Assembly (NCBI RefSeq): GCF_006345805.1
Contig: NC_043001.1
Coordinates: 48,422,001 to 48,486,000, forward strand
Length of the DNA stretch: 64,000 bases
Direction of reading: 5' to 3'
DNA from: Octopus sinensis
Lineage: Eukaryota
Below the pieces are notes generated by a model. The model was not told the DNA's origin, did not search any database, and saw only the letters and a list, made by a program, of their open reading frames with translations. Shown here piece after piece: positions 973-51,420 of the stretch. Positions within the stretch are counted from its first letter, which is position 1, and each line of letters opens with the position of its first letter. The position numbers and the translations under genes were made by a program.

Positions 973-989
973 CGTTGGTTTCAAGTACC
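973..989. repeat. Left copy of 17-bp target-site duplication cgttggtttcaagtacc
   Basis: Identical to 18458-18474; the two bracket the split SINE, the Tx1 LINE and the array. Confidence 0.9.
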
Positions 990-1172
990 TATTTCTTTAT
1001 TACCCACAAGGGGCTAAACACAGAGGGGACAAACAAGGACAGACATAGGTATTAAGTCGATTACATCGACCCCAGTGCGTAACTGGTACTTAATATATCT
1101 ACCCCGAAAGGATGAAAGGCAAAATCGACCTCGGCGGAATTTGAACTCACAACGTAACGCAGACGAAATACG
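990..1172 (-). mobile_element. Body and Tx1-like tail of a family A SINE whose head lies at 18434-18457
   Basis: Minus strand reads gtatttcgtctgcgttacgttgtgagttcaaattccgccgaggtcga...gccccttgtgggtaataaagaaata, collinear with the intact copies starting at 21168 and 50486. Confidence 0.9.
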
Positions 1173-1418
1173 AATTTCTTTATTGCCCACCGGGGGCCAA
1201 ACATAGATATGGACAGTACAACTGATGGGATCAGTGAATCGATATGATTTTACATAAATGTGACATCAAAAATAAAATACAATACATAAAAATCGAATGG
1301 AATACACAGTACAAAAACAAAAGAAATGAAGCGATGATCAAGTTACGCTCCGATCCCACAAGCCCCGATCTACCGCTGATACCTTTTTATTTTCTCTTTT
1401 TTTTTTCCTCGTATATTT

Positions 1419-4400
1419 TCACACGGTTCCTTGCACGCACAACACTCGTGCAACATACTTCCATCTCTTTTGGAACGTACACTCTGACAGACACCTCTTC
1501 TCCAGCCACAGTTTCCTTTTCAAATGAAAAGAAAAAAAGGATCGTAAATTGTCACCAGAGATAAAGTTGCCTGTCTTAATTCCTTATATCCTAGTATTCC
1601 ATACAGCCTCTTTTGCTATTGCTACAACCGTGAGAAAACAATTCTTACCTTCGTTCGTTAGAACTCCCGGTGGGTCAATTTTTATAATTGACTCAGTCGA
1701 CAGCCGTACTCTTCCTTCGCCGGACAACAGATGTTCAGCATAAGCCCACATTTCAGTTATCTCCGGACACTGAACAATAGCGTGAGGGACGGTTTCCCTG
1801 TCCCCACCGCATCTTGGACAGGTCGGCGACTGACGTTTACCATGTCTTGCGAGCTTATCCCAAACGGGCAAGGCACCTCTGTAGCATTGCCAGGTTAAGG
1901 ACTTTTGGAAGTTGTCCAACGTTCTCAACCCGAATGTACGATGAAACAAGCTGTCCAGTTGAATAAATCCGAGACCTAGAGTCGACCCCAGGCCATCGTC
2001 GCATTCAGACTCTACCAACCCACTATATAAAATCCGTGTGGAACCCCCACCGCTGGCGTTGCCCGAGCGCCGGAACAGCAAGAGGGCCTTACGGCACTCT
2101 TTATGCCACTCACTCGACCTCGGTCTACGAGAACACCAGGCTTCCTGTTCGCAAAAACTCTTGAACTCAGGGAACATTTGTCTGGCCAGCGGAGACCACA
2201 CCCCTTCACTATCCAGGAGAATCCAGAGGTGCCTCAACCTCAACGCATGTCTGCGCATCATTAACCAAGGCATCCCTAAACCTCCATTTAAAGGCTTTTG
2301 ACAGCAGACAGAGCGTTTCACAAGTGGCGACCTGCCCTTCCACAAAAAGCGAAAGAGCTGTCTCTCCAACCTGATCAACCACGAATCCGGACAGGGCACG
2401 ACAGTCAGGCGGTAGGTAATGACCGATGCGATAAACACATTGGCCACTTCCGCCCTCCCTTTCAGGGATAGCCACCGCCAAGACCAAGTCTTGACTACTG
2501 CAGCCACCCTGCTCAATACTCCGTCCAGTTCTTCTCTATCTGGAGGCCTGGTCCAAACCAGACTCCCAGCAACTTAACCGGTCCCTCCGTCCAGCGCCTA
2601 ACAACACTGTCTGAAGGCATCGACTTGCCAACCCAGGTGCCGAGCTGCAAGCCGACCGACTTTTCCCGGTTAATCTTTGCTCCTGCTACCTCCTCGTAAG
2701 CCTCAATAGTCTTACCTACTTCACGTAGGCGTACCACTGTGGTTACACTGATAGTGATATCATCCGCGAAAGCCGTAACAAACTCCTCTAGTCCTGGTTC
2801 TCTCGGGATGCCACTCAACCTTTGCAGTAATGGCTCGAGAGCCATCACATACAAAAGTGGTGAAAGCGGACATCCTTGACGAACCGAGCGTCTGATGCAG
2901 AACGGCTTCGAAAGGAAACCGTTCACCCGAACTATCGAGTCAATGTTGTGGTACAAAGCGATAAACCACCTGAGGAAGCCAAGGCCCAGGCCAAACCGCG
3001 CAAGTACAGTCGCTAGGTATCGATGGTCAACCCTATCAAAAGCTTTAGACTGGTCCAAATGCACCAAAGCCCCACCTTTGCCAGATTTATTACCAAACCT
3101 CTCTATGGTATAGCGAATAAGATGGAGGGTATCCTGAATGGTTCTGCCTGGGATGGCACATGTCTGTGCCTCCCCGACTATACCATTCGCGACACGCGCC
3201 AACCTTTTTGCTAGAACCTTGGCCAAAATCTTCACTTCTGCGTTTAACAGAGTGATGGGCCTGAAATTCTCTAGAACGTCCCCCTTGTCCGGGTCCTTTC
3301 TGACCAACGTCACTACTCCCCGGCGCACAGATCTGGGGATAAACCCATTCTGTTTCCAGTTCGCGTACACGTCAGTCAGTAGTTGCCCGAACAAGTCTGG
3401 CATACATTTATACAGCTCGTACGGAAGACCATCAAGTCCCGGTGACTTACCCGCTTTACAATCGGCCAAAGCCTCCATCACCTCCTCAAGTGTGATTGGC
3501 CCTTCGCAAGACTCCGCATCCGACCCCGAGAGGCACGGCAGCCCGGTAAGAAAGTCCTCGAGGGCTCTCCCACCACCAGGACCGCCGTCACCCCCGAACA
3601 GCTGGGCGAAGTACTCCCGAAAGACCTCACACATTTTCTCGGGTTCGTTTATCAAGACACCATTTTGATTCGTCAAAGACCGAATAGAGGAACTATTTCC
3701 TTGCCGAGCTTCCACCACTCGGGCCCATCCAGCGGCTTTGATTCCTTCACTTCCCATTGCACGTAACTTAGCTCTGGTAATACTTCCCATGTGGTGGGCT
3801 TCAAGATGCTGGTTTAACTCCAGTCTTTTCACCCTCGCTTGGTCTGTATTACCAGTCCTCCAGGCTTCTTCTAGTTCCTTAACTAGACCATCTCCTATTT
3901 TACGTCCCTTCTTAGCTAAACTTATGCTAAACCTAATAGACTCATATTTGATGGCTCTTTTTAGGGCGTACCACCATTTGTTATTAATGATGGTACCTGT
4001 TAATGCCCTCTGTATTAACATCTTGATCCGCTTTCTGTACTCCTCAATCGCCAAAAGGGACGTATTGAGTTTCCAGTAGCCAGATCCCTGTCTATGCAAC
4101 TTATCTACCGTCAGTTTACAGGTAACCATCTTGTGGTCACTGTAGCTGACTAGAAAAAACTGTGGACACTCAACTATGGACTTATCTTTTTCTCTAATTA
4201 AAATCCTATCTAGATATGTTCTGGTAGACCCGTCACTATTTGACCACGTCCACTGTGGAGTGTTCGGGTGCTCCAACCTATATGGATCTGCTAGCTGAAA
4301 TTGACTTAGCAGATCCCGAAAGCCTGTGTTACATTTTCTGTTCATGTTCGAGTTTGAGCCAACACAATCTGTGTGTGCTGCACATATTGTATTAGAGTCT

Positions 4401-4818
4401 CCTAACACTACTAGTGAATGCGACGTGGCTAGGAACTTTCCTAGGCCACGAAAATATTCAGTTTGCGGGCCAATAATGTTTGGTGCATAAATAGCGACCA
4501 GCCTGATTGTCTTGCCACAACTGAATGTCAAGTCGAGAACGACCAGCCTGCCTTCTGGGTCAGAAAAAACCAACTTTTTCTCGGCTACCCGGTTTCTTTT
4601 TAGTAGGACCAACACCCCACCCCCACCTCCGCCCGACTCGGAGAAACGTATTTCTCGTAGCCGTTCAGGAGGGGGAGCAGATCTCTTGGCCCCTTCACCC
4701 GGGTTTCCGTTGCAACAATTACATCCAAATTTCTCGACCTGATGTCATTCAGAAAGCGTCCTTGCTTCCAGCTTGACAACAGGCCATGAACATTTAAACA
4801 ACCAATGTGAATAGCCAT
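1419..4818 (-). pseudogene. Tx1 ORF2: APE endonuclease + reverse transcriptase + C-terminal zinc finger, disrupted
   Basis: Motifs GCLNVHGL, VLGDSN, LDRIL, SDH (APE); KSPGLDG, FRPITLLN, LDQSKAFDRV, RQGCPLSP, FADD (RT); CPRC..ETVPH..C. Frameshifts near 4610 and 2515 and a premature TAA at 1584-1586; the frame then continues to a TGA at 1419-1421. Confidence 0.92.
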
Positions 4819-6168
4819 CACTTACCTGTTTAATTAGGATTGTCCGGTGGAGGGGGACCCTCCACCTTTTTTTATCCAGGGTCGGAGGTGGACGGTCTTG
4901 GGAAATAGATTTGTCAAAATCCCGTCTCACCACCGACACAGAATTATCAGGTGGAGGGGGAATCTCCACCTTTTCCTTTTCTCGCGGGATCGGAGCTGGT
5001 AATCCATGAAATATCGACTTGTTAAAATCTAATCTCAATGAAGATACAGTCTTTCTGTACTTATTTTGTAGAATTCTATAAGTCTTATTTGAGACTTCAT
5101 ATATGTCGTAATTGATAAATTCCTCTGAAAGGTTATCAATTTTTTTACAGTCTTTATGAGTTGAATGTCTCTCATGAGCTCAGTATCTTTAGTGTATACG
5201 GCTATTATGTTTTTCTTCTTTTTCTCTTCTGGCAGTCTTTTTTGGTCGTTGTTCTGTAGTAGTCGCCGCTCTCGGCTGGGTTGCTGGTTGTATTTTTCTT
5301 TTGTTTGTGTTTTTTTTTCTCATCTGTTTCTTCTTTATCTTCTTCCTCTTTGTCTTTTTTCTCCTCTTCCTCCTCTTCTTCATTTTCCTTGCAGTTCCTT
5401 CGAATGTGGCCTAATTGACCACATAAAAAACATCGAGGTTTTCGGCCCTCAACAAACACCACGAGGTTCTCCTCCCCTACCTCAATTGTCTCAGGAATTG
5501 TTTGAATTATTTTAGGGTCCGCTTGAATGAGAAGATTAATTGTTTTACCATCCCAGCGTGGGTTTTCCGTAGCGGTAGCCTGGAGGAGAGTAATTTTTTC
5601 TACCTCTTTGATTAGGACTGCCGCCAACAACCACATAGGTTCGACCTCTGGCGGGACCCTTGTAATTTTTATTCGCGACGTCCTCATCCCCATATAATAT
5701 GGTATTAACTCTACGTCGTTCGTTTTCAACGTTTCCACTGAGTTCTTGTGTGCTATTTCTTTATTGGTGAACCTTACTTCCACCGTTCCGAATTTTTTTC
5801 CTCTTCTCAGAAATACTACGTCGCCCAATATTGGCTTTAAGCACTTTTCTATTTTCTCTTCTGACATTCTTTCAATTTTTCTATTTTGTAGACAATATGT
5901 TTTGAAAATTATTGTTTTTTGCTTTTCTTCCTGTAATAACTTTTGCGGAGGTTCAATTTTCACACTGTTGTCATTTATTTCCATCATTTTGCTGTATTTC
6001 ATAATTTCGCTTTTATTCGTCGACAGTATCTGGGTTCCACCCCCAGCAGCCAACGCAAATTTTTTTCCATTTTTTGGTTCTATCTGGATGCTAGGCACAT
6101 CAATTATTCTCTTCGACACAATGCCTTTGTTCTCTGGCAAAGTCGGAAACTCTTCTGGTGAAAGTTCT
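4819..6168 (-). pseudogene. Tx1 ORF1 (gag-like, CCHC knuckle), N-terminally truncated and frameshifted
   Basis: ORF 5205..6140 has CFLCGQLGHIRRNC and the blocks FLRRGKKFGTVEVRF and VFVEGRKPRC, homologous to the array ORF; Lys/Glu/Pro-rich tail continues in other frames. Confidence 0.85.
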
Positions 6169-6317
6169 TATTTCTTTATTACCCACTAGGGGCGACACAG
6201 AAAGGGACACTAAGAAACATGGGGACATATAACATTATAATTAAACTTTATGAACATGAATTGTTAAACGAAAAAATGATTAAATGAAAGCGATACCAAC
6301 GGCCCCGTCCGTCAGCA

Positions 6318-7732
6318 TCACTTACCTGTCCTTTGTTTTTCATAGTCACTTGAATGTTCCTTGCCAATACGAACAAATTCCATATCCATTCTTACTCCGA
6401 AATACTCATCCATATTTTCCACGAATTCATCGCTCATTCTTATATCTTTCACCTCCCAATTCTCGCATTCACACATCACCATAAAGTCACCTATGTTCTT
6501 CTTTTCAATCACAGCATACCTAGTCTCACCAACATCATACCATTTATACTCTTCCATTAGACTTTTAACTTCTTTCTGTTCAGTCATAGTACAAATGTAC
6601 GGCCTGATATCGATTTCAATCTCTTGTGTGTGTGTATTCTTTTTTTTCTTTTGTTTTCTTGTTGGGGGGGAGCGGGTGGGTTCAATGTCTGCATGGATAG
6701 GGTGGGACTCAGAGGGCGTGGGTGGTTTTGGGGTGGATTGGAGTTCCATATTATTTTCTTTTCCACGTATTCTTCTCTTCCTCTTACTTCCAGCTTCCTT
6801 CCATTTCTGTGTATTCTCTTCCTCTGTTTCCTTCTCCTCTGGTTTCTGCTTCTCTCTCTCTGGTTCGGGATCCATTTCTTTCCCTGGGGGAGGGCAGAAG
6901 GCTCTTATGTGACCCCTCAGGCCACACTTGTAACAACGTGGAGCCCTGCCCTCCACCCACACTCTCATGATCACTTCTCCCAGTCTGATGCTTTCCGTCA
7001 GGTCCACCAGTACCTCGGTCTCTGCCTGTACGTTCAGCTCCACTGTTACGCCTCTCCAGCCCTCGGACTTAACCGAGGCATGGAGAATATCCACTTCGTC
7101 CTCGTGGCCGCTGATCACAGCCGCCACAATCCATTCTGCCTCCACGTTTGGTGGCACTCCCTCCACCCTTATTCGTGTAATCCTCCTGTTTAAATACGTA
7201 GGTAACAGTGTTACCTTTTCCGACTTCACCGCCTTCGCTGCCATCTTCCTCGCTGCAGATTCACTTTTAAAATGCACAACTACGGTCCCATACTTGGATC
7301 CTCGAGTCAGAAAATTTATTTCCTCCTCAGTTCTTCGCAGGGCTTCCTCTATCCATTCCATGGTTACAACTTCTACCCTCTTCCTTTCGTTTGCGAACAC
7401 CCTGTAAAAATGGTCCTCTTATCATACCATTCTTTTCTCCTGGGTGTCGGTGATAGTTCCACCTCACCGCTTTCCTTTTTCATGTGTTTCTGGTAACTTG
7501 GTAGTTTGGCCAAGTCGACCCCTTTCTCTTCCGCCTTCTTGGTTACACCGGCATAAGTATAACTCAGCTTCTTTTCCAAATTCCTCGCTGCCATTTCTAG
7601 CTCCTTCTCAGACGTAGGCGAGTCTGATAAAGACTCGAAAACTCCAGCCTTTTCCTCCATCAGCTTCACTGCAATTGCCTGTTCCAGTTCCTCATCTGTC
7701 GTGGACAAGTCTGTTAGAGACTCATAGTCCAT
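6318..7732 (-). CDS. Array unit 1 ORF: Tx1-type ORF1/gag-like protein, about 471 aa once one frameshift near 7407 is corrected
   Basis: MDYESL...CYKCGLRGHIRAFC...RTGK*; 1415 nt with one base missing relative to the other copies. Confidence 0.8.
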
Positions 7733-8075
7733 TTCCTTCTGTCTGACAGACCGAAAACGGCCGCCAAAACAGAAAAAAGTTTAACGCGCTGAACGAGCGA
7801 AACGCGAAACCGCGTCAACGCCGTTCAGAATTTCCACAACAACAACAACGCTTTTTGTTCTTTTTTACCGAATTTTCAGGAGCCGAAAAAAACACAACCG
7901 ACGTCAAACGAAGTGCTAACGTTTCTTATTTCTTTATTACCCACTAGGGGCGACACAGAAAGGGACACTAAGAAACATGGGGACATATAACATTATAATT
8001 AAACTTTATGAACATGAATTGTTAAACGAAAAAATGATTAAATGAAAGCGATACCAACGGCCCCGTCCGTCAGCA

Positions 8076-9490
8076 TCACTTACCTGTCCTTTGTTTTTCA
8101 TAGTCACTTGAATGTTCTTTGCCAATACGAACAAATTCCATATCCATTCTTACTCCGAAATACTCATCCATATTTTCCACGAATTCATCACTCATTCTTA
8201 TATCTTTCACCTCCCAATTCTCCCTTTCACACCTCACCATAAAGTCACCTATGTTCTTCTTTTCAATCACAGCATACCTAGTCTCACCAACATCATACCA
8301 TTTATACTCTTCCATTAGACTTTTAACTTCTTTCTGTTCAGTCATAGTACAAATGTACGGCCTGATATCGATTTCAATCTCTTGTGTGTTGTATTCTTTT
8401 TTTTTTTTTTGTTTCTTGTTGGGGGGGAGCGGGTGGGTTCAATGTCTGCATGGATAGGGTGGGACTCAGAGGGCGTGGGTGGTTTTGGGGTGGATTGGAG
8501 TTCCATATTATTTTCTTTTCCACGTATTCTTCTCTTCCTCTTACTTCCAGCTTCCTTCCATTTCTGTGTATTCTCTTCCTCTGTTTCCTTCTCCTCTGGT
8601 TTCTGCTTCTCTCTCTCTGGTTCGGGATCCATTTCTTTCCCTGGGGGAGGGCAGAAGGCTCTTATGTGACCCCTCAGGCCACACTTGTAACAACGTGGAG
8701 CCCTGCCCTCCACCCACACTCTCATGATCACTTCTCCCAGTCTGATGCTTTCCGTCAGGTCCACCAGTACCTCGGTCTCTGCCTGTACGTTCAGCTCCAC
8801 TGTTACGCCTCTCCAGCCCTCGGACTTAACCGAGGCATGGAGAATATCCACTTCGTCCTCGTGGCCGCTGATCACAGCCGCCACAATCCATTCTGCCTCC
8901 ACGTTTGGTGGCACTCCCTCCACCCTTATTCGTGTAATCCTCCTGTTTAAATACGTAGGTAACAGTGTTACCTTTTCCGACTTCACCGCCTTCGCTGCCA
9001 TCTTCCTCGCTGCAGATTCACTTTTAAAATGCACAACTACGGTCCCATACTTGGATCCTCGAGTCAGAAAATTTATTTCCTCCTCAGTTCTTCGCAGGGC
9101 TTCCTCTATCCATTCCATGGTTACAACTTCTACCCTCTTCCTTTCGTTTGCGAACACCCTGTAAACAATGGTCCTCTTATCATACCATTCTTTTCTCCTG
9201 GGTGTCGGTGATAGTTCCACCTCACCGCTTTCCTTTTTCATGTGTTTCTGGTAACTTGGTAGCTTGGCCAAGTCGACCCCTTTCTCTTCCGCCTTCTTGG
9301 TTACACCGGCATAAGTATAACTCAGCTTCTTTTCCAAATTCCTCGCTGCCATTTCTAGCTCCTTCTCAGACGTAGGCGAGTCTGATAAAGACTCGAAAAC
9401 TCCAGCCTTTTCCTCCATCAGCTTCATTGCAATTGCCTGTTCCAGTTCCTCATCTGTCGTGGACAAGTCTGTTAGAGACTCATAGTCCAT
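8076..9490 (-). CDS. Array unit 2 ORF1-like protein (frameshift in T-rich tract near 8400)
   Basis: 382-aa and 89-aa ORF pieces join to give the consensus protein. Confidence 0.8.
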
Positions 9491-9832
9491 TTCCTTCTGT
9501 CTGACAGACCGAAAACGGCCGCCAAAACAGAAAAAAGTTTAACGCGCTGAACGAGCGAAACGCGAAACCGCGTCAACGCCGTTCAGAATTTCCACACAAC
9601 AACAACGCTTTTTGTTCTTTTTTACCGAATTTTCAGGAGCCGAAAAAAACACAACCGACGTCAAACGAAGTGCTAACGTTTCTTATTTCTTTATTACCCA
9701 CTAGGGGCGACACAGAAAGGGACACTAAGAAACATGGGGACATATAACATTATAATTAAACTTTATGAACATGAATTGTTAAACGAAAAAATGATTAAAT
9801 GAAAGCGATACCAACGGCCCCGTCCGTCAGCA

Positions 9833-11244
9833 TCACTTACCTGTCCTTTGTTTTTCATAGTCACTTGAATGTTCCTTGCCAATACGAACAATTCCATATC
9901 CATTCTTACTCCGAAATACTCATCCATATTTTCCACGAATTCATCGCTCATTCTTATATCTTTCACCTCCCAATTCTTCCTTTCACACCTCCCCATAAAC
10001 TCACCTATGTTCTTCTTTTCAATCACAGCATACCTAGTCTCACCAACATCATACCATTTATACTCTTCCATTAGACTTTTAACTTCTTTCTGTTCAGTCA
10101 TAGTACAAATGTACATCCTGATATCGTTTTCAATCTCTTGTGTGTGTGTATTCTTTTTTTTCTTTTGTTTTCTTGTTGGGGGGGAGCGGGTGGGTTCAAT
10201 GTCTGCATGGGTAGGGTGGGACTCAGAGGGCGTGGGTGGTTTTGGGGTGGATTGGAGTTCCATATTGTTTTCTTTTCCACGTATTCTTCTCTTCCTCTTA
10301 CTTCCAGCTTCCTTCCATTTCTGTGTATTCTCTTCCTCTGTTTCCTTCTCCTCTGGTTTCTGCTTCTCTCTCTCTGGTTCGGGATCCATTTCTTTCCCTG
10401 GGGGAGGGCAGAAGGCTCTTATGTGACCCCTCAGGCCACACTTGTAACAACGTGGAGCCCTGCCCTCCACCCACACTCTCATGATCACTTCTCCCAGTCT
10501 GATGCTTTCCGTCAGGTCCACCAGTACCTCGGTCTCTGCCTGTACGTTCAGCTCCACTGTTACGCCTCTCCAGCCCTCGGACTTAACCGAGGCATGGAGA
10601 ATATCCACTTCGTCCTCGTGGCCGCTGATCACAGCCGCCACAATCCATTCTGCCTCCACGTTTGGTGGCACTCCCTCCACCCTTATTCGTGTAATCCTCC
10701 TGTTTAAATACGTAGGTAACAGTGTTACCTTTTCCGACTTCACCGCCTTCGCCGCCATCTTCCTCGCTGCAGATTCACTTTTAAATGCACAACTACGGTC
10801 CCATACTTGGATCCTCGAGTCAGAAAATTTATTTCCTCCTCAGTTCTTCGCAGGGCTTCCTCTATCCATTCCATGGTTACAACTTCTACCCTCTTCCTTT
10901 CGTTTGCGAAACCCTGTAAACAATGGTCCTCTTATCATACCATTCTTTTCTCCTGGGTGTCGGTGATAGTTCCACCTCACCGCTTTCCTTTTTCATGTGT
11001 TCTGGTAACTTGGTAGTTTGGCCAAGTCGACCCCTTTCTCTTCCGCCTTCTTGGTTACACCGGCATAAGTATAACTCAGCTTCTTTTCCAAATTCCTCGC
11101 TGCCATTTCTAGCTCCTTCTCAGACGTAGGCGAGTCTGATAAAGACTCGAAAACTCCAGCCTTTTCCTCCATCAGCTTCATTGCAATTGCCTGTTCCAGT
11201 TCCTCATCTGTCGTGGACAAGTCTGTTAGAGACTCATAGTCCAT
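9833..11244 (-). pseudogene. Array unit 3 ORF1-like, several 1-bp indels
   Basis: 83-aa and 331-aa fragments of the consensus protein. Confidence 0.75.
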
Positions 11245-11587
11245 TTCCTTCTGTCTGACAGACCGAAAACGGCCGCCAAAACAGAAAAAAGTTTAACGCG
11301 CTGAACGAGCGAAACGCGAAACCGCGTCAACGCCGTTCAGAATTTCCACAACAACAACAACGCTTTTTGTTCTTTTTTACCGAATTTTCAGGAGCCGAAA
11401 AAAACACAACCGACGTCAAACGAAGTGCTAACGTTTCTTATTTCTTTATTACCCACTAGGGGCGACACAGAAAGGGACACTAAGAAACATGGGGACATAT
11501 AACATTATAATTAAACTTTATGAACATGAATTGTTAAACGAAAAAATGATTAAATGAAAGCGATACCAACGGCCCCGTCCGTCAGCA

Positions 11588-12996
11588 TCACTTACCTGTC
11601 CTTTGTTTTTCATAGTCACTTGAATGTTCCTTGCCAATACGAACAAATTCCATATCCATTCTTACTCCGAAATACTCATCCATATTTTCCACGAATTCAT
11701 CGCTCATTCTTATATCTTTCACCTCCCAATTCTCGCATTCACACATCACCATAAAGTCACCTATGTTCTTCTTTTCAATCACAGCATACCTAGTCTCACC
11801 AACATCATACCATTTATACTCTTCCATTAGACTTTTAACTTCTTTCTGTTCAGTCATAGTACAAATGTACGGCCTGATATCGATTTCAATCTCTTGTGTG
11901 TGTGTATTCTTTTTTTCTTTTGTTTTCTTGTTGGGGGGGAGCGGGTGGGTTCAATGTCTGCATGGATAGGGTGGGACTCAGAGGGCGTGGGTGGTTTTGG
12001 GGTGGATTGGAGTTCCATATTATTTTCTTTTCCACGTATTCTTCTCTTCCTCTTACTTCCAGCTTCCTTCCATTTCTGTGTATTCTCTTCCTCTGTTTCC
12101 TTCTCCTCTGGTTTCTGCTTCTCTCTCTCTGGTTCGGGATCCATTTCTTTCCCTGGGGGAGGGCAGAAGGCTCTTATGTGACCCCTCAGGCCACACTTGT
12201 AACAACGTGGAGCCCTGCCCTCCACCCACACTCTCATGATCACTTCTCCCAGTCTGATGCTTTCCGTCAGGTCCACCAGCACCTCGGTCTCCGCCTGCAC
12301 GTTCAGCTCCACTGTTACGCCTCTCCAGCCCTCGGACTCAACCGAGGCATGGAGAATATCCACTTCGTCCTCGTGGCCGCTGATCACAGCCGCCACAATC
12401 CATTCTGCCTCCACGCTTGGTGGCACTCCCTCCACCCTCATTCGTGCAATCCTCCTGTTCAAATACGTAGGCAACAGTGTTACCTTTTCCGACTTCACCG
12501 CCCTCGCCGCCATCTTCCTCGCTGCAGATTCACTTTCAAAGTGCACAACTACGGTCCCGTACTTGGATCCTCGAGTCAGAAAATTTATTTCCTCCTCAGT
12601 TCCTCGCAGGGCCTCCTCCATCCATTCCATGGATACAACTTCTACCCTCTTCCCTTCGTTTGCGCACACCCTGCAAACAATGGTCCTCCCATCATACCAT
12701 TCCTCTCTCCTGGGTGTCGGTGATAGCTCCACCTCACCGCCTTCCCCTTTCATGTGCTTCTGGCAACTTGGTAGCTTGGCCAAGTCGACCCCTTTCTCCT
12801 CCGCCTTCTTGGTCACACCGGCACAAGTATAACTCAGCCTCCTTTCCAATTTCCCTGCTGCCATTTCCAGCTCCTTCTCAGACAAGTCTGATAAAGACTC
12901 GAAAACTCCAGCCCCTTCCTCCATCAGCCTCACTGCAATTGCCTGTTCCAGTTCCCCATCCGTCGTGGACAAGTCTGTTAGAGACTCATAGTCCAT
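11588..12996 (-). pseudogene. Array unit 4 ORF1-like, A>G hypermutated
   Basis: 380-aa and 89-aa pieces with many K>R, K>E, E>G, Y>C changes. Confidence 0.8.
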
Positions 12997-13339
12997 TTCC
13001 TTCTGTCTGACAGACCGAAAACGGCCGCCAAAACAGAAAAAAGTTTAACGCGCTGAACGAGCGAAACGCGAAACCGCGTCAACGCCGTTCAGAATTTCCA
13101 CAACAACAACAACGCTTTTTGTTCTTTTTTACCGAATTTTCAGGAGCCGAAAAAAACACAACCGACGTCAAACGAAGTGCTAACGTTTCTTATTTCTTTA
13201 TTACCCACTAGGGGCGACACAGAAAGGGACACTAAGAAACATGGGGACATATAACATTATAATTAAACTTTATGAACATGAATTGTTAAACGAAAAAATG
13301 ATTAAATGAAAGCGATACCAACGGCCCCGTCCGTCAGCA

Positions 13340-14749
13340 TCACTTACCTGTCCTTTGTTTTTCATAGTCACTTGAATGTTCTTTGCCAATACGAATAAAT
13401 TCCATATCCATTCTTACTCCGAAATACTCATCCATATTTTCCACGAATTCATCGCTCATTCTTATATCTTTCACCTCCCAATTCTCGCATTCACACTCCC
13501 ATAAAGTCACCTATGTTCTTCTTTTCAATCACAGCATACCTAGTCTCACCAACATCATACCATTTATACTCTTCCATTAGACTTTTAACTCTTCTGTTCA
13601 GTCATAGTACAAATGTACGGCCTGATATCGATTTCAATCTCTTGTGTGTGTGTATTCTTTTTTTTCTTTTGTTTTCTTGTTGGGGGGGAGCGGGTGGGTT
13701 CAATGTCTGCATGGATAGGGTGGGACTCAGAGGGCGTGGGTGGTTTTGGGGTGGATTGGAGTTCCATATTATTTTCTTTTCCACGTATTCTTCTCTTCCT
13801 CTTACTTCCAGCTTCCTTCCATTTCTGTGTATTCTCTTCCTCTGTTTCCTTCTCCTCTGGTTTCTGCTTCTCTCTCTCTGGTTCGGGATCCATTTCTTTC
13901 CCTGGGGGAGGGCAGAAGGCTCTTATGTGACCCCTCAGGCCACACTTGTAACAACGTGGAGCCCTGCCCTCCACCCACACTCTCATGATCACTTCTCCCA
14001 GTCTGATGCTTTCCGTCAGGTCCACCAGTACCTCGGTCTCTGCCTGTACGTTCAGCTCCACTGTTACGCCTCTCCAGCCCTCGGACTTAACCGAGGCATG
14101 GAGAATATCCACTTCGTCCTCGTGGCCGCTGATCACAGCCGCCACAATCCATTCTGCCTCCACGTTTGGTGGCACTCCCTCCACCCTTATTCGTGTAATC
14201 CTCCTGTTTAAATACGTAGGTAACAGTGTTACCTTTTCCGACTTCACCGCCTTCGCTGCCATCTTCCTCGCTGCAGATTCACTTTTAAAATGCACAACTA
14301 CGGTCCCATACTTGGATCCTCGAGTCAGAAAATTTATTTCCTCCTCAGTTCTTCGCAGGGCTTCCTCTATCCATTCCATGGTTACAACTTCTACCCTCTT
14401 CCTTTCGTTTGCGAACACCCTGTAAACAATGGTCCTCTTATCATACCATTCTTTTCTCCTGGGTGTCGGTGATAGTTCCACCTCACCGCTTTCCTTTTTC
14501 ATGTGTTTCTGGTAACTTGGTAGCTTGGCCAAGTCGACCCCTTCTCTTCCGCCTTCTTGGTTACACCGGCATAAGTATAACTCAGCTTCTTTTCCAATTC
14601 CTCGCTGCCATTTCTAGCTCCTTCTCAGACGTAGGCGAGTCTGATAAAGACTCGAAAACTCCAGCCTTTTCCTCCATCAGCTTCATTGCAATTGCCTGTT
14701 CCAGTTCCTCATCTGTCGTGGACAAGTCTGTTAGAGACTCATAGTCCAT
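13340..14749 (-). pseudogene. Array unit 5 ORF1-like, several 1-bp indels
   Basis: 315-aa central fragment matches the consensus protein. Confidence 0.75.
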
Positions 14750-15090
14750 TTCCTTCTGTCTGACAGACCGAAAACGGCCGCCAAAACAGAAAAAAGTTTA
14801 ACGCGCTGAACGAGCGAAACGCGAAACCGCGTCAACGCCGTTCAGAATTTCCACAACAACAACAACGCTTTTTGTTCTTTTTTACCGAATTTTCAGGAGC
14901 CGAAAAAAACACAACCGACGTCAAACGAAGTGCTAACGTTTCTTATTTCTTTATTACCCACTAGGGGCGACACAGAAAGGGACACTAAGAAACATGGGGA
15001 CATAACATTATAATTAAACTTTATGAACATGAATTGTTAAACGAAAAAATGATTAAATGAAAGCGATACCAACGGCCCCGTCCGTCAGCA

Positions 15091-16503
15091 TCACTTACCT
15101 GTCCTTTGTTTTTCATAGTCACTTGAATGTTCCTTGCCAATACGAACAAATTCCATATCCATTCTTACTCCGAAATACTCATCCATATTTTCCACGAATT
15201 CATCGCTCATTCTTATATCTTTCACCTCCCAATTCTTCCTTTCACACCTCCCCATAAACTCACCTATGTTCTTCTTTTCAATCACAGCATACCTAGTCTC
15301 ACCAACATCATACCATTTATACTCTTCCATTAGACTTTTAACTTCTTTCTGTTCAGTCATAGTACAAATGTACATCCTGATATCGTTTTCAATCTCTTGT
15401 GTGTGTGTATTCTTTTTTTCTTTTGTTTTCTTGTTGGGGGGGAGCGGGTGGGTTCAATGTCTGCATGGGTAGGGTGGGACTCAGAGGGCGTGGGTGGGTT
15501 TGGGGTGGATTGGAGTTCCATATTGTTTCTTTTCCACGTATTCTTCTCTTCCTCTTACTTCCAGCTTCCTTCCATTTCTGTGTATTCTCTTCCTCTGTTT
15601 CCTTCTCCTCTGGTTTCTGCTTCTCTCTCTCTGGTTCGGGATCCATTTCTTTCCCTGGGGGAGGGCAGAAGGCTCTTATGTGACCCCTCAGGCCACACTT
15701 GTAACAACGTGGAGCCCTGCCCTCCACCCACACTCTCATGATCACTTCTCCCAGTCTGATGCTTTCCGTCAGGTCCACCAGTACCTCGGTCTCTGCCTGT
15801 ACGTTCAGCTCCACTGTTACGCCTCTCCAGCCCTCGGACTTAACCGAGGCATGGAGAATATCCACTTCGTCCTCGTGGCCGCTGATCACAGCCGCCACAA
15901 TCCATTCTGCCTCCACGTTTGGTGGCACTCCCTCCACCTTATTCGTGTAATCCTCCTGTTTAAATACGTAGGTAACAGTGTTACCTTTTCCGACTTCACC
16001 GCCTTCGCCGCCATCTTCCTCGCTGCAGATTCACTTTTAAAATGCACAACTACGGTCCCATACTTGGATCCTCGAGTCAGAAAATTTATTTCCTCCTCAG
16101 TTCTTCGCAGGGCTTCCTCTATCCATTCCATGGTTACAACTTCTACCCTCTTCCTTTCGTTTGCGAACACCCTGTAAACAATGGTCCTCTTATCATACCA
16201 TTCTTTTCTCCTGGGTGTCGGTGATAGTTCCACCTCACCGCTTTCCTTTTTCATGTGTTTCTGGTAACTTGGTAGCTTGGCCAAGTCGACCCCTTTCTCT
16301 TCCGCCTTCTTGGTTACACCGGCATAAGTATAACTCAGCTTCTTTTCCAAATTCCTCGCTGCCATTTCTAGCTCCTTCTCAGACGTAGGCGAGTCTGATA
16401 AAGACTCGAAAACTCCAGCCTTTTCCTCCATCAGCTTCACTGCAATTGCCTGTTCCAGTTCCTCATCTGTCGTGGACAAGTCTGTTAGAGACTCATAGTC
16501 CAT
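15091..16503 (-). pseudogene. Array unit 6 ORF1-like, several 1-bp indels
   Basis: 205-aa, 182-aa and 94-aa fragments. Confidence 0.75.
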
Positions 16504-16843
16504 TTCCTTCTGTCTGACAGACCGAAAACGGCCGCCAAAACAGAAAAAAGTTTAACGCGCTGAACGAGCGAAACGCGAAACCGCGTCAACGCCGTTCAGA
16601 ATTTCCACAACAACAACAACGTTTGTTGTTTTTTTACCGAATTTTCAGGAGCCGAAAAAAACACAACCGACGTCAAACGAAGTGCTAACGTTCTTATTTC
16701 TTTATTACCCACTAGGGGCGACACAGAAAGGGACACTAAGAAACATGGGGACATATAACATTATAATTAAACTTTATGAACATGAATTGTTAAACGAAAA
16801 AATGATTAAATGAAAGCGATACCAACGGCCCCGTCCGTCAGCA

Positions 16844-18253
16844 TCACTTACCTGTCCTTTGTTTTTCATAGTCACTTGAATGTTCCTTGCCAATACGAAC
16901 AAATTCCATATCCATTCTTACTCCGAAATACTCATCCATTTTTCCACGAATTCATCGCTCATTCTTATATCTTTCACCTCCCAATTCTCGCATTCACATC
17001 ACCATAAAGTCACCTATGTTCTTCTTTTCAATCACAGCATACCTAGTCTCACCAACATCATACCATTTATACTCTTCCATTAGACTTTTAACTTCTTTCT
17101 GTTCAGTCATAGTACAAATGTACGGCCTGATATCGATTTCAATCTCTTGTGTGTGTGTATTCTTTTTTTTCTTGTTTTCTTGTTGGGGGGGAGCGGGTGG
17201 GTTCAATGTCTGCATGGATAGGGTGGGACTCAGAGGCGTGGGTGGTTTTGGGGTGGATTGGAGTTCCATATTATTTTCTTTTCCACGTATTCTTCTCTTC
17301 CTCTTACTTCCAGCTTCCTTCCATTTCTGTGTATTCTCTTCCTCTGTTTCCTTCTCCTCTGGTTTCTGCTTCTCTCTCTCTGGTTCGGGATCCATTTCTT
17401 TCCCTGGGGGAGGGCAGAAGGCTCTTATGTGACCCCTCAGGCCACACTTGTAACAACGTGGAGCCCTGCCCTCCACCCACACTCTCATGATCACTTCTCC
17501 CAGTCTGATGCTTTCCGTCAGGTCCACCAGTACCTCGGTCTCTGCCTGTACGTTCAGCTCCACTGCTACGCCTCTCCAGCCCTCGGACCCAACCGAGGCA
17601 TGGAGAATATCCACCTCGTCCTCGTGGCCGCCGATCACAGCCGCCACAATCCATTCCGCCTCCACGCCTGGTGGCACTCCCTCCACCCCCACTCGTGCAA
17701 TCCTCCTGTTCAAATACGCAGGCAACAGCGCTACCCCCCCCGACCTCACCGCCCTCGCCGCCATCCCCCTCGCTGCAGATTCACCTTTAAAGTGCACAAC
17801 CACGGTCCCGCACTTGGATCCTCGAGTCAGAAAATTCACTTCCTCCTCAGTTCCTCGCAGGGCCTCCTCCATCCATTCCATGGACACAACCTCCACCCTC
17901 CTCCCTTCGCTCGCGCACACCCTGCAAACAATGGTCCTCCCATCACACCATTCCCCTCTCCTGGGTGTCGGTGACAGTTCCACCTCACCGCCCTCCCCCC
18001 TCATGTGCTTCTGGCAACTTGGCAGCTTGGCCAAGTCGACCCCCCTCTCCTCCGCCTTCCTGGCTACACCGGCACAAGTATAACTCAGCTTCCCCTCCAA
18101 ACTCCTCGCTGCCATTTCCAGCTCCTTCTCAGACGTAGGCGAGTCTGATAAAGACTCGAAAACTCCAGCCTTTTCCTCCATCAGCTTCATTGCAATTGCC
18201 TGTTCCAGTTCCTCATCTGTCGTGGACAAGTCTGTTAGAGACTCATAGTCCAT
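16844..18253 (-). pseudogene. Array unit 7 ORF1-like, heavily A>G hypermutated
   Basis: 419-aa ORF with K>R/G, E>G, Y>C, T>A, I>V changes concentrated in about 17566-18119. Confidence 0.8.
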
Positions 18254-18299
18254 TTCCTTCTGTCTGACAGACCGAAAACGGCCGCCAAAACAGAAAAAA

Positions 18300-18433
18300 G
18301 TTTAACGCGCTGAACGAGCGAAACGCGAAACCGCGTCAACGCCGTTCAGAATTTCCACAACAACAACAACGCTTTTTGTTCTTTTTTACCGAATTTTCAG
18401 GAGCCGAAAAAAACACAACCGACGTCAAACGAA
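18300..18433 (-). promoter_or_regulatory. CpG-rich 5' UTR of the array unit (candidate internal promoter; present in all seven units)
   Basis: Dense CpGs (cggcgttgacgcggtttcgcgtttcgctcg) and a CRE-like tgacgtcg upstream of the ATG. Promoter function is inferred from L1-group biology. Confidence 0.35.
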
Positions 18434-18457
18434 GTGCTAACGTTTCTGCCATCTCGC
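18434..18457 (-). mobile_element. 5' head (A-box region) of the split family A SINE
   Basis: Minus strand gcgagatggcagaaacgttagcac versus intact gcgagctggcagaaacgttagcac at about 50491. Confidence 0.85.
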
Positions 18458-18474
18458 CGTTGGTTTCAAGTACC
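18458..18474. repeat. Right copy of the 17-bp TSD
   Basis: Identical to 973-989. Confidence 0.9.
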
Positions 18475-21167: not shown

Positions 21168-21755
21168 AGCTGGAGCTGGCAGAAACGTTAGCACGCCGAG
21201 CGAAATGCGTAGCCGTGTTTCGTCTGCCGTTACGTTCTGAGTTCAAATTCCGCCGAGGTCGACTTTGCCTTTCAACCTTTCGGGGTCAATAAATTCAGTA
21301 CCAGTTATGCACTGGGGTCGATGTAATCGACTTAATCCGTTTGTCTGTCCTTGTTTGTCCCTCTGTGTTTAACCCCTTGTGGGTAGTAAAATAGTAAAGA
21401 AATAGAAATAGGTATTTCGTCTGCCGCTACGTTCTGAGTTCAAATTCCGCCGAGGTCGACTTTGCGTTTCATCCTTTCGGGGTCGATTAGATAAGTACCA
21501 GTTACGCACTGGGGTCGATATAATCGACTTAATCCGTTTGTTTATCCTTGTTTATCCCCTGTGTGTTTAGCCCCTTGTGGGTAGTAAAGAAATAGGTATT
21601 TCGTCTGTCTTTACGTTCTGAGTTCAAATTCCGCCGAGGTCGACTTTACCTTTAGGAGTCGATAAATTAAGTACCAGTTGCGTACTGATTTCTATCTAAT
21701 CGACTGGCGCTCTCTCGAAAAATTTCGGGCCTTCTGCTTAGAGTAGAAAAGAATT
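21168..21755 (+). mobile_element. Family A SINE trimer
   Basis: One full unit plus two headless units joined at gaaata|ggtatttcgtctg (21410/21411 and 21594/21595). Confidence 0.88.
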
Positions 21756-50269: not shown

Positions 50270-51420
50270 CGTGATGTGAAGACAATTTGAAAGCTCGCTA
50301 CCCAATTAAATTTCGTGTTAGACTGGGCAAAGACGCTACAGAAAATTATGAAATACTCCAGACTACCGATGAATTAACTTGTATGAGCTGAGCATGTTTT
50401 ACGCTGACACGAGTTGTCCGACAAGGCAATCCGCTGGGAAGGTCGTGGTGATCCCCTTTCTAGACAGTAAGTGTATCACTACGGAAGGCGGCGAGCTGGC
50501 AGAAACGTTAGCACGCCGGGCGAAATGCGTAGCCGTATTTCGTCTACCGTTACGTTCTGAGTTCAAATTCCGCCGAGGTCGACTTTGCCTTTCATCCTTT
50601 CGGGGTCAATAAATTAAGTACTAGTTACGCACTAGGGTCGATATAATCGACTTAATCCGTTTGTCTGTCCTTGTTTGTCCTCTATGTGTTTAGCCCCTTG
50701 TGTGTAGTAAAGAAATAGGTATTTCGTCTGCCGCTACGTTCTGAGTTCAAATTCCGCCGAGGTCGACTTTGCCTTTCATCCTTTCGGGGTCGATTAAATA
50801 AGTACCAGTTACGCACTGGGGTCGATATAATCGACTTAATCCGTTTGTCTGTCCTTGTTTGTCTTCTCTGTGTGTAGCCCCTTGTGGGCAGTAAAGAAAT
50901 AAGTAAGGATATCATCTAGATTCACTGGGTTTCCTCTGACCAAATAGTTTAGAAACGGCACTTTGTGAAGATTTTGATTGAGTTCAGGAAGAGATTTCGT
51001 CGAAAAAGGCCAGAGCTCTTCCATTCGGCTTGTTGGCACATGCACCAATACAATGCACCAGACCACAGCTCGATCCTGGTAACCAACTACTTGACTTAGA
51101 AGGGCTCCAAAACTCCCTCACCCTCCCTACAGTCCAGATCTTTCCCCCTTTGACTTTTGGTTGTTCCCCAGGTTGAAAAAGAACTTAAGGGGCAGTTGTT
51201 TTGATGACATTGAGAAGATGAAGGAGGCTGTGACAAGGGTCCTGGACACCTTCACTTCAGAAGACTTCCATGGGGGTCTTCACGAAGTGGCTGGAGTTCT
51301 ACACCAAGTGCACTGAAGCCAGGGGTGCCCAACTTTGATGGAAATTAGAATTTTGTACTTCTTTGAGTGGAATAGATGTCTTTCCTGAAAATGTCTCAAA
51401 ACTTCTGGAGAGCACTTTGT
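50270..51420 (+). mobile_element. Internally deleted mariner transposon remnant interrupted by a SINE dimer
   Basis: IKFRVRLGKDATE near 50305; HQYNAPDH and YSPDLSPFDFWLFPRLKKNLRG at about 51040-51190. Confidence 0.8.
50486..50901 (+). mobile_element. Family A SINE dimer with Tx1-like tails
   Basis: Junction aaagaaata|ggtatttcgtctg at 50717/50718; degenerate TSD agtaag..tatca on both flanks. Confidence 0.88.

What the first reader, a model, noticed from the sequence alone, without database searches (positions are those of the whole stretch)
17566..18119. ADAR-type A>G hyper-editing fossilised in array unit 7
Compared with unit 2, roughly 70 T>C changes on the plus strand (A>G on the element's sense strand; counted by eye) fall in a sharply bounded ~550-bp tract, e.g. 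gttaccttttccgactt to gctaccccccccgacct. Only about four other substitutions occur. Changed Ts are mostly followed by A or T and rarely by C, so edited As avoid a 5' G, the established ADAR neighbour preference. Coleoid cephalopods have very extensive A-to-I editing. Inference: this copy was reverse-transcribed from hyper-edited RNA, showing both an RNA intermediate and host ADAR acting on the element.
Basis: partly seen in the sequence, partly recalled or inferred. Interest (0 to 1): 0.88.

Follow-up and report, generated by a model that had tools for sequence, protein, structure and literature searches.

The report
RNA edits fossilised in retrotransposon DNA
This copy of a small jumping gene, a second copy in the same tandem array and three copies elsewhere in this (probably octopus) genome each carry dozens of A-to-G changes on one strand only, in the sequence context typical of the RNA-editing enzyme ADAR, likely because separately edited RNA molecules were copied back into DNA, which would make a normally temporary RNA change a lasting mutation.

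Summary
Confirmed and extended. Unit 7 of a seven-unit array (6165-18447, minus-strand sense) has 68 A>G changes in 17566-18119. Rates by 5' neighbour are U 20/28, A 42/66, C 4/26, G 2/63; none of 198 favourable sites outside the tract is changed. The four other substitutions are family polymorphisms. Contigs of a genome-sized run match 38 of the 68 edited sites exactly, so polishing error is unlikely. Unit 4 (39 changes) and three copies elsewhere (63-142 changes, two subfamilies) show the same signature: 5 heavy tracts plus one short cluster among 122 copies, and no T>C, G>A or C>T clusters. Shared sites reflect hot spots, not descent. The unit is an ORF1-only non-LTR passenger that inserts into a SINE head with target duplications. 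Best reading (0.87): ADAR hyper-edited element RNA, probably paired with antisense RNA (partner not found), was retrotransposed. ADAR acting on DNA in a hybrid is not excluded. I found no paper showing this for non-LTR elements. This scan has noted it before (unchecked) in this genome, including unit 4, and in mammalian L1.

The parts
17566..18119 (-). A>G hypermutated tract of unit 7 (68 sites; about nt 325-877 of the unit's sense strand, inside the 5' half of its ORF)
   Evidence: exact contig matches over 38 of 68 sites
16691..18447 (-). Unit 7, the 5'-most unit of the array: ORF1-only non-autonomous non-LTR element
16994..18253 (-). ORF1-like frame of unit 7, open for 419 aa from the ATG with the CCHC knuckle intact; 38 residue changes against unit 2 in the first 300 aa (many K>R, K>G, Y>C, T>A). 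The family frame is 471 aa; unit 7 has small indels in its 3' part
   Evidence: 31% identity over 258 aa to the LINE's ORF1, E 2e-43 (unit 2)
12280..12961 (-). Second, independent A>G tract in unit 4 (39 sites; 5' U 15/31, A 20/76, C 2/34, G 2/82)
11435..13186 (-). Unit 4 (edited)
6165..11434 (-). Units 1-3, unedited siblings (starts 6165, 7923, 9680)
13187..16690 (-). Units 5-6, unedited siblings (starts 13187, 14940)
1172..6164 (-). Young LINE (CCHC ORF1; endonuclease + RT + zf-RVT ORF2, in two frames in this copy), lacking about 420 nt of its 5' end. Unit 1 is joined at an internal site resembling the SINE target. Likely mobilising partner (shared 3' tail); not hypermutated
990..1171 (-). 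Body and tail of the SINE into which the LINE and the units inserted
18444..18457 (-). Head of the same SINE, ending at the unit's insertion site
   Evidence: same junction at L010, L013, L047 and others
973..989 (.). Left copy of the SINE's 17-bp target-site duplication
   Evidence: sequence
18458..18474 (.). Right copy of the 17-bp target-site duplication
   Evidence: sequence

Best explanation
Unit 7 is a copy of an ORF1-only non-LTR retroelement whose 68 one-strand A-to-G changes were likely made by host ADAR on the element's RNA before a LINE enzyme likely copied that RNA into the chromosome. Shown: the strand bias, the U>A>C>G 5' neighbour order, the presence in DNA-run contigs, recurrence in five separate copies of two subfamilies, and insertion hallmarks. 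Inferred steps: (1) a minority of element transcripts pair over 0.5-1.2 kb of their 5' part with a complementary RNA, probably an antisense transcript, since the unit has no fold-back and no inverted copy lies nearby; (2) ADAR deaminates about 30-70% of favourable adenosines there; (3) the unedited 3' tail, shared with the LINE and the SINE, is still recognised, and the LINE's endonuclease/RT inserts the RNA in trans at the SINE-head target regenerated at every unit junction; (4) RT reads inosine as G, fixing A>G on the sense strand only; (5) the insertion occurred in the germ line or early embryo. A>G changes cannot create stop codons, so the frame stays open but is heavily recoded.
For: Spectrum and context. 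Five copies pooled: 5' G 28/418 vs 405/836 for other neighbours (p 2e-56), order U 0.68, A 0.49, C 0.29, G 0.07. This matches human ADARs, where the 5' neighbour dominates and U/A are preferred over C/G (PMC3113232 Results part 1 of 2), and the pan-metazoan upstream-G depletion (PMC5625713 passages). Internal control: ordinary A>G variants in 88 unedited copies are not depleted after G (49/183 vs 63/366). Strand control: runs of 5 or more same-type mismatches are A>G in 6 of 122 copies and T>C, G>A or C>T in 0. Independence: unit 4 shares 25 of 30 sites with unit 7 and equally 25 of 30 with C10182:44475, a copy 31 non-A>G differences from its nearest neighbour; each copy has private sites and different ends. 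Tracts stay inside single units and spare the 3' 450 nt or more in all five. In DNA: X1 contigs match unit 7 exactly at depth 65 and 38 (flank 52), and two further contigs have the difference counts and listed positions of the C10182 copy. Retroposition hallmarks: a 13-14-nt target copy at all six internal junctions, SINE-head insertion at several loci, shared 3' tail, mixed haplotypes and subfamilies within arrays. The genome holds several A_deamin (PF02137) loci over the cut-off, not typed as ADAR, ADAD or ADAT.
Against: No duplex partner was found: longest self-inverted match 17-19 nt, and 0 of 40 stretches with hits hold copies on both strands. No edited RNA was shown. The 3' neighbour shows a mild G/C preference (G 157/396 vs 276/858, p 0.01; A 131/448), whereas PMC5625713 reports downstream A enrichment and weak G preference for invertebrates including octopus. 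ADAR can deaminate the DNA strand of hybrids with the same neighbour trends (PMC5389660 passages), so context alone does not pick RNA. In human cells ADAR1 restricted L1 without detectable editing of L1 RNA (PMC5224506 passages). X1 may be the run behind the assembly, so it is not an independent individual; 30 of 68 sites lie outside the two exact contigs listed.
Confidence: 0.87

Rival explanations
1. ADAR (or a related deaminase) acted on the sense DNA strand of an integrated copy while it was paired with an antisense RNA (R-loop), and the inosines escaped repair.
For: ADARs edit DNA in long hybrids in vitro with RNA-like neighbour trends (PMC5389660). This would give the same spectrum and context.
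Against: It needs an antisense hybrid in all six clusters, while hybrids of the element's own sense RNA, or the cDNA:RNA intermediate, would give the opposite polarity (sense T>C: 0 of 122). No tract crosses a unit boundary. About two thirds of favourable sites would have to survive inosine repair in one event (inference).
Confidence: 0.05
2. Edited RNA was reverse-transcribed and the cDNA converted part of an already inserted unit, so the tract ends mark the conversion rather than the RNA duplex.
For: Sharp ends; arrays of near-identical units are good recombination substrates.
Against: Unit 7 matches one unedited copy with only 3 non-A>G differences across its full length, and unit 4 one with 2 non-A>G substitutions, so no haplotype switch is needed. 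Marker density is low, so power is limited. This still requires ADAR-edited RNA.
Confidence: 0.04
3. An error-prone reverse transcriptase under a skewed dNTP pool (dC opposite template A) produced the cluster without any deaminase.
For: It would also be one-stranded and confined to retrocopies (general knowledge, recalled).
Against: It does not predict a U>A>C>G 5' order or hot sites shared between separate copies. 0 of 61 copies of the LINE, copied by presumably the same RT over 293 kb, show it.
Confidence: 0.02
4. Assembly or polishing artefact, or GC-biased conversion or ordinary divergence.
For: Long-read assembly with small indels between units; clustered same-type sequencing errors are known, G>A in Sanger traces (PMC2873906 passages).
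Against: Exact matches in X1 contigs. 68 T>C vs 2 A>G on the plus strand (p 4e-11). Context differs from background variants.
Confidence: 0.02

Closest known systems
ADAR hyper-editing of repeat-derived dsRNA (PMC5625713, passages; PMC3113232, abstract and Results part 1)
   Same: Dense A>G clusters, dominant 5' neighbour effect with G depletion; octopus is among the most hyper-edited species.
   Different: Those are RNA-versus-genome differences; here the changes stand in genomic DNA. The downstream preference differs mildly from the reported invertebrate motif.
APOBEC 'DNA-edited' retroelements fixed in vertebrate genomes (PMC4866542 and PMC2873906, passages)
   Same: A host deaminase scar, strand-specific and clustered, fixed in individual retroelement copies beside unedited siblings.
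   Different: G>A from cDNA deamination, screened in LTR elements, with invertebrates as a negative control. Here A>G, a non-LTR element, an invertebrate, and an RNA-level enzyme inferred.
ADAR-type A>G hypermutated retroviral proviruses (avian leukosis/Rous-associated virus; recalled and named in AI notes, not read)
   Same: Edited RNA written into DNA by reverse transcription.
   Different: Exogenous retroviruses in somatic cells, versus an endogenous non-LTR passenger inserted by target-primed reverse transcription.
Target-specific Tx1-clade LINEs and their passengers, e.g. crocodilian Tx1-Mar with SINEU-3 in Mariner-N4_AMi (PMC4494074, passages)
   Same: Insertion at a fixed site in another repeat; tandem serial insertions separated by target duplications; passenger mobilised in trans.
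   Different: Here the target is a SINE head and the passenger encodes an ORF1 protein. Clade membership was not tested, and no editing was seen in the passages read.

Membership tests
ADAR hyper-edited sequence | Dense cluster of almost exclusively A>G changes on one strand | tested here: met
   68 of 68 non-polymorphic substitutions in the tract
ADAR hyper-edited sequence | 5' neighbour preference U/A over C over G | tested here: met
   background control
ADAR hyper-edited sequence | 3' neighbour preference (G in vertebrates; A-enriched in invertebrates per PMC5625713) | tested here: inconclusive
   Mild G/C preference pooled (p 0.01), not the reported invertebrate A enrichment
ADAR hyper-edited sequence | A long double-stranded substrate covering the tract | tested here: inconclusive
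   No fold-back and no inverted copy in the stretches fetched; antisense RNA cannot be seen in unstranded contigs
ADAR hyper-edited sequence | The same sites are edited in RNA; dependence on ADAR | not testable with these tools
   Only contigs of guessed-RNA runs were available
APOBEC DNA-edited retroelement | G>A clusters on the sense strand | tested here: not met
   0 of 122 copies with a G>A run of 5 or more
Non-autonomous non-LTR retroelement | No RT of its own; 3' tail shared with an autonomous LINE; target-site duplication; dispersed copies | tested here: met
   No Pfam hit in the unit ORF; ORF1 homology; tails and junctions; 72 copies of one 30-mer on 13 large and 3 small contigs
Tx1-clade LINE (partner) | ORF1 with CCHC knuckle; ORF2 with APE-type endonuclease and RT | tested here: met
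   PF00098, PF03372, PF00078, PF13966; shared with other clades, so not diagnostic
Tx1-clade LINE (partner) | Target-sequence preference | tested here: met
   3' ends run into the same SINE position in most copies shown; 45 of 61 stretches have a SINE-head motif at the expected 5' place, some of them unrelated SINEs
Tx1-clade LINE (partner) | RT phylogeny within Tx1 | not tested
   No reference RT set was available here

The most novel reading that the evidence does not exclude
ADAR is a recurrent germ-line mutagen of retrotransposons in this animal: about 4% (5 of 122) of recent insertions of this trans-mobilised ORF1-only element came from hyper-edited RNA. Edited RNAs reach the genome mainly as passengers, because an autonomous LINE must translate its own RNA into a working RT (0 of 61 LINE copies edited). 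The genome would then hold a datable fossil record of germ-line editing, the RNA-level counterpart of APOBEC DNA editing, which recodes ORF1 without ever creating stops.
Probability: 0.5. Interest if true: 0.85.

Novelty: new variant of a known kind. Interest (0 to 1): 0.74.

Why it matters
A 2016 review says a role for ADAR editing in mutating retrotransposons 'has not yet been determined' but is logical to assume (PMC4982230, passage on Alu), and cell-culture work found no editing of L1 RNA (PMC5224506). Here single edited molecules seem preserved next to their unedited siblings, several times over. That makes testable whether ADAR works on retroelement RNA in the germ line, whether inosine-rich RNA is still a template for target-primed reverse transcription, and how much RNA editing feeds heritable variation in the most heavily editing animals. 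It is also a practical warning: such genomic copies can be mistaken for hyper-edited RNA reads in editing screens.

Tried and rejected
Common ancestry of the unit 4 and unit 7 tracts: rejected. Overlap exceeds a context-matched permutation (25 vs 18.6-21.2) but is the same with the unrelated C10182 copy (25 vs 19.0-20.4).
Long-term ADAR footprint in the family: not found. Variants in 88 unedited copies lack the context and are not enriched at fossil sites (18/90 vs 3/21, p 0.76). No two edited copies are identical, so there is no sign that an edited copy founded daughters. C9:487659 looked edited against unit 1 but belongs to another subfamily.
A sixth row (C4_35395735, a partial copy misaligned with flank) was dropped, and the pooled counts were recomputed without it. 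The codon count was cut short by a 1-nt gap in unit 1; one search replaces it.
RNA: no RNA holder on record was listed. Four runs (one of unknown kind, three guessed RNA) laid on unit 1 gave mixed-subfamily contigs with no T>C excess (T>C 13-26 vs C>T 16-42); uninformative.
Runs X7 (same sample label as X1) and X2 have no cover over the densest parts of the tract; a hole proves nothing. Their flank contigs stop matching at 18434, a weak hint that the array is absent there. X5's depth over the tract could come from short unedited contigs.
Passenger-versus-LINE contrast: 5/122 vs 0/61 is not significant per copy (p 0.17), though about 7 tracts would be expected per base. Only 60 of 128 copies matching one mid-ORF2 motif were fetched, and another AI note reports an edited LINE copy in this genome. 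A second LINE motif matched only the window copy and was useless.
Three of five heavy copies are the 5'-most unit of their array; too few to interpret.
Folding of the unit's 5' 1 kb gave only short local helices, with no shuffle control.
Literature searches listed no paper showing ADAR-edited non-LTR copies in a genome; I saw titles and abstract starts only, and the library lacks most subscription journals. PMC12988792 has no mention of editing (term search). No supplements were read.

Full report
Observation. Self-comparison of the window shows a head-to-tail array of seven 1.75-kb units at 6165-18447. Against the per-column majority, units 1, 2, 3, 5 and 6 have 5-22 differences, including indels, and 0-1 T>C. 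Unit 7 has 68 T>C and unit 4 has 39. Unit 7's changes run from 17566 to 18119, as stated, and affect 68 of 183 Ts; against unit 2 the count is 71. The ORF lies on the minus strand, so these are A>G on the sense strand. Editing by sense 5' neighbour is U 20/28, A 42/66, C 4/26, G 2/63 (p 1e-13). Unit 4 gives 15/31, 20/76, 2/34 and 2/82. Inside unit 7's tract 62 of 94 favourable sites are changed; outside, 0 of 198. The four other substitutions in the tract are a haplotype present in unedited copies on other contigs.

Is it in the DNA? Of four runs laid at 95% likeness, X1 (2.7 billion letters of contigs, DNA by guess) has contigs identical to unit 7 over 17578-17704 and 17940-18138, at depth 65 and 38 against 52 for the unique flank. 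They cover 38 of the 68 sites. Two other X1 contigs have 3 and 4 differences, matching the counts and listed positions of another edited copy, C10182:44475. X1 may be the assembly's own sample, so this excludes a polishing error but is not a second individual. The table of pieces was cut (2857 not shown).

What the element is. The unit encodes one protein of about 470 aa with a CCHC knuckle. It has no Pfam hit but is 31% identical over 258 aa to ORF1 of the adjacent LINE; the Atlas's nearest clusters are eukaryotic CCHC proteins, the top two mostly molluscan where phylum is known. The LINE (1172-6164) encodes an endonuclease, RT and zf-RVT and has at least 128 matching copies, many about 99% identical. 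Unit, LINE and the common SINE share a 3' tail. Units insert just behind the SINE head at several loci, and each junction in this array carries a 13-14-nt copy of the target, so new units can keep landing in the array. The LINE inserts at a fixed site about 30-45 nt further into the SINE. Here one SINE, bounded by a 17-bp duplication (973-989 and 18458-18474), holds the LINE and all seven units. Unit 1 is joined inside LINE ORF1 at a target-like site, and the sequence between the two target sites is missing. Arrays mix haplotypes and subfamilies, so each unit is most likely a separate RNA molecule. This resembles crocodilian Tx1-Mar/SINEU-3 serial insertions (PMC4494074, passages); clade membership was not tested. 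'Octopus' is my recall of the SINE plus other AI notes, not a tool label.

Other copies. A degenerate 30-mer found 72 copies, 3 of them multiply edited. Forty 8-10-kb stretches plus the window's first 20 kb gave 122 unit-family copies, 98 of them at least 85% identical to unit 1. Runs of five or more same-type mismatches against each of the three nearest neighbours were A>G in 6 copies and T>C, G>A or C>T in none. The six are unit 7 (70 A>G), unit 4 (38), C10182:44475 (142), C12979:21450 (63) and C5:19152681 (104), the last two from a subfamily only about 63% like unit 1, and a short 5'-end cluster in C5:14120423. Dense tracts span sense nt 327-880, 228-915, 52-1291, 268-778 and 88-876; the 3' 450 nt or more are spared in all. 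Pooled over the five, after dropping one misaligned partial copy: 5' U 126/185, A 222/451, C 57/200, G 28/418. Background A>G variants in 88 unedited copies show no such depletion (49/183 after G vs 63/366). Unit 4 shares 25 of 30 sites with unit 7 and 25 of 30 with the distant C10182 copy, so the sharing reflects site preference and the events are independent. Of 128 LINE copies matching one motif I fetched 60; with the window's copy, 0 of 61 (293 kb aligned) were hypermutated. The three flagged runs were in old copies, 76-85% identical, with symmetric A>G and G>A. Per copy the contrast is not significant (p 0.17).

Mechanism. The 5' order matches human ADAR1/2 on long dsRNA (PMC3113232, Results part 1) and the upstream-G depletion across animals, in which octopus is among the most hyper-edited (PMC5625713, passages). 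The mild downstream G/C preference does not match the A enrichment that paper gives for invertebrates. The genome has several A_deamin-domain loci (not typed). The unit has no long fold-back, and none of 40 stretches with hits holds copies on both strands, so the partner is probably an antisense transcript; this is inferred. The unedited tail would still be recognised by the LINE machinery, RT would read inosine as G, and only the sense strand would carry the scar. ADAR on the DNA strand of a hybrid gives similar context in vitro (PMC5389660, passages). However, the hybrids natural to this life cycle would give sense T>C, which never occurs, and tracts never leave a unit. In unit 7, 36 codons change non-synonymously and 15 synonymously from edits; the frame stays open for 419 aa. 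Contigs of guessed-RNA runs were uninformative.

Novelty. Deaminase scars in genomic retroelements are known for APOBEC (G>A, LTR elements, invertebrates as negative control; PMC4866542 passages; PMC2873906 passages). A>G hypermutated avian proviruses are recalled, not read. A review calls ADAR mutation of Alu undetermined (PMC4982230), and L1 RNA was found unedited in culture (PMC5224506). Eight searches (listings only) showed no report of ADAR-edited non-LTR copies in a genome, within a library lacking most subscription journals. This scan's own unchecked notes describe the same phenomenon at several other places of this genome, on unit 4 of this window, and in mammalian L1 and an ERV. I found unit 4 and the other copies before those look-ups, and they are not independent proof.

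Verdict. A real, repeatable feature; a new variant of a known kind (host-deaminase scars in retroelements, here by the RNA-editing route in a non-LTR element). Confidence 0.87, interest 0.74.

Noticed in passing
window 973-18474: One SINE with a 17-bp target duplication holds a LINE and seven ORF1-only units. Both element types target fixed sites in the SINE, so this is a SINE-targeting LINE/passenger system with mixed-subfamily arrays on many contigs.
   Followed up: partly
G000 C5:14120423-14122180, C2:193361057-193362804, C10182:44475-46216: Short A>G clusters at shared positions about 48-92 nt from the unit's 5' end (9, 6 and 11 sites), hinting at a separate, perhaps local hairpin, editing site in the 5' UTR.
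   Followed up: partly
window units 3 (9680-11434) and 6 (14940-16690): These two units share a private haplotype (about 10 variants), unlike their neighbours: same source element or a DNA-level duplication or conversion.
   Followed up: no
window 6164/6165: Unit 1 is joined inside LINE ORF1 at a motif mimicking the SINE target, with loss of about 420 nt of LINE 5' end plus the SINE segment between the two targets.
   Followed up: partly
window 1584-4744: LINE ORF2 is in two frames overlapping near 2513-2573; assembly error or real break not determined.
   Followed up: no
G000 C5:19143858-19153652, C9:479000-489000, C12979, C10182: At least four subfamilies of the ORF1-only unit (63-85% identical) are stacked in the same arrays; C10182's array ends in a different LINE, 77% identical to the window's.
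   Followed up: partly
window 21173-21705 and 50493-50905: Tandem SINE copies (periods 197 and 184), consistent with SINEs inserting into SINEs.
   Followed up: no
window 6165-7922, run X3: One run of unknown kind (85 million letters of contigs) covers the whole unit at much greater depth than the three guessed-RNA runs; if RNA, it could be a tissue that expresses the element.
   Followed up: no
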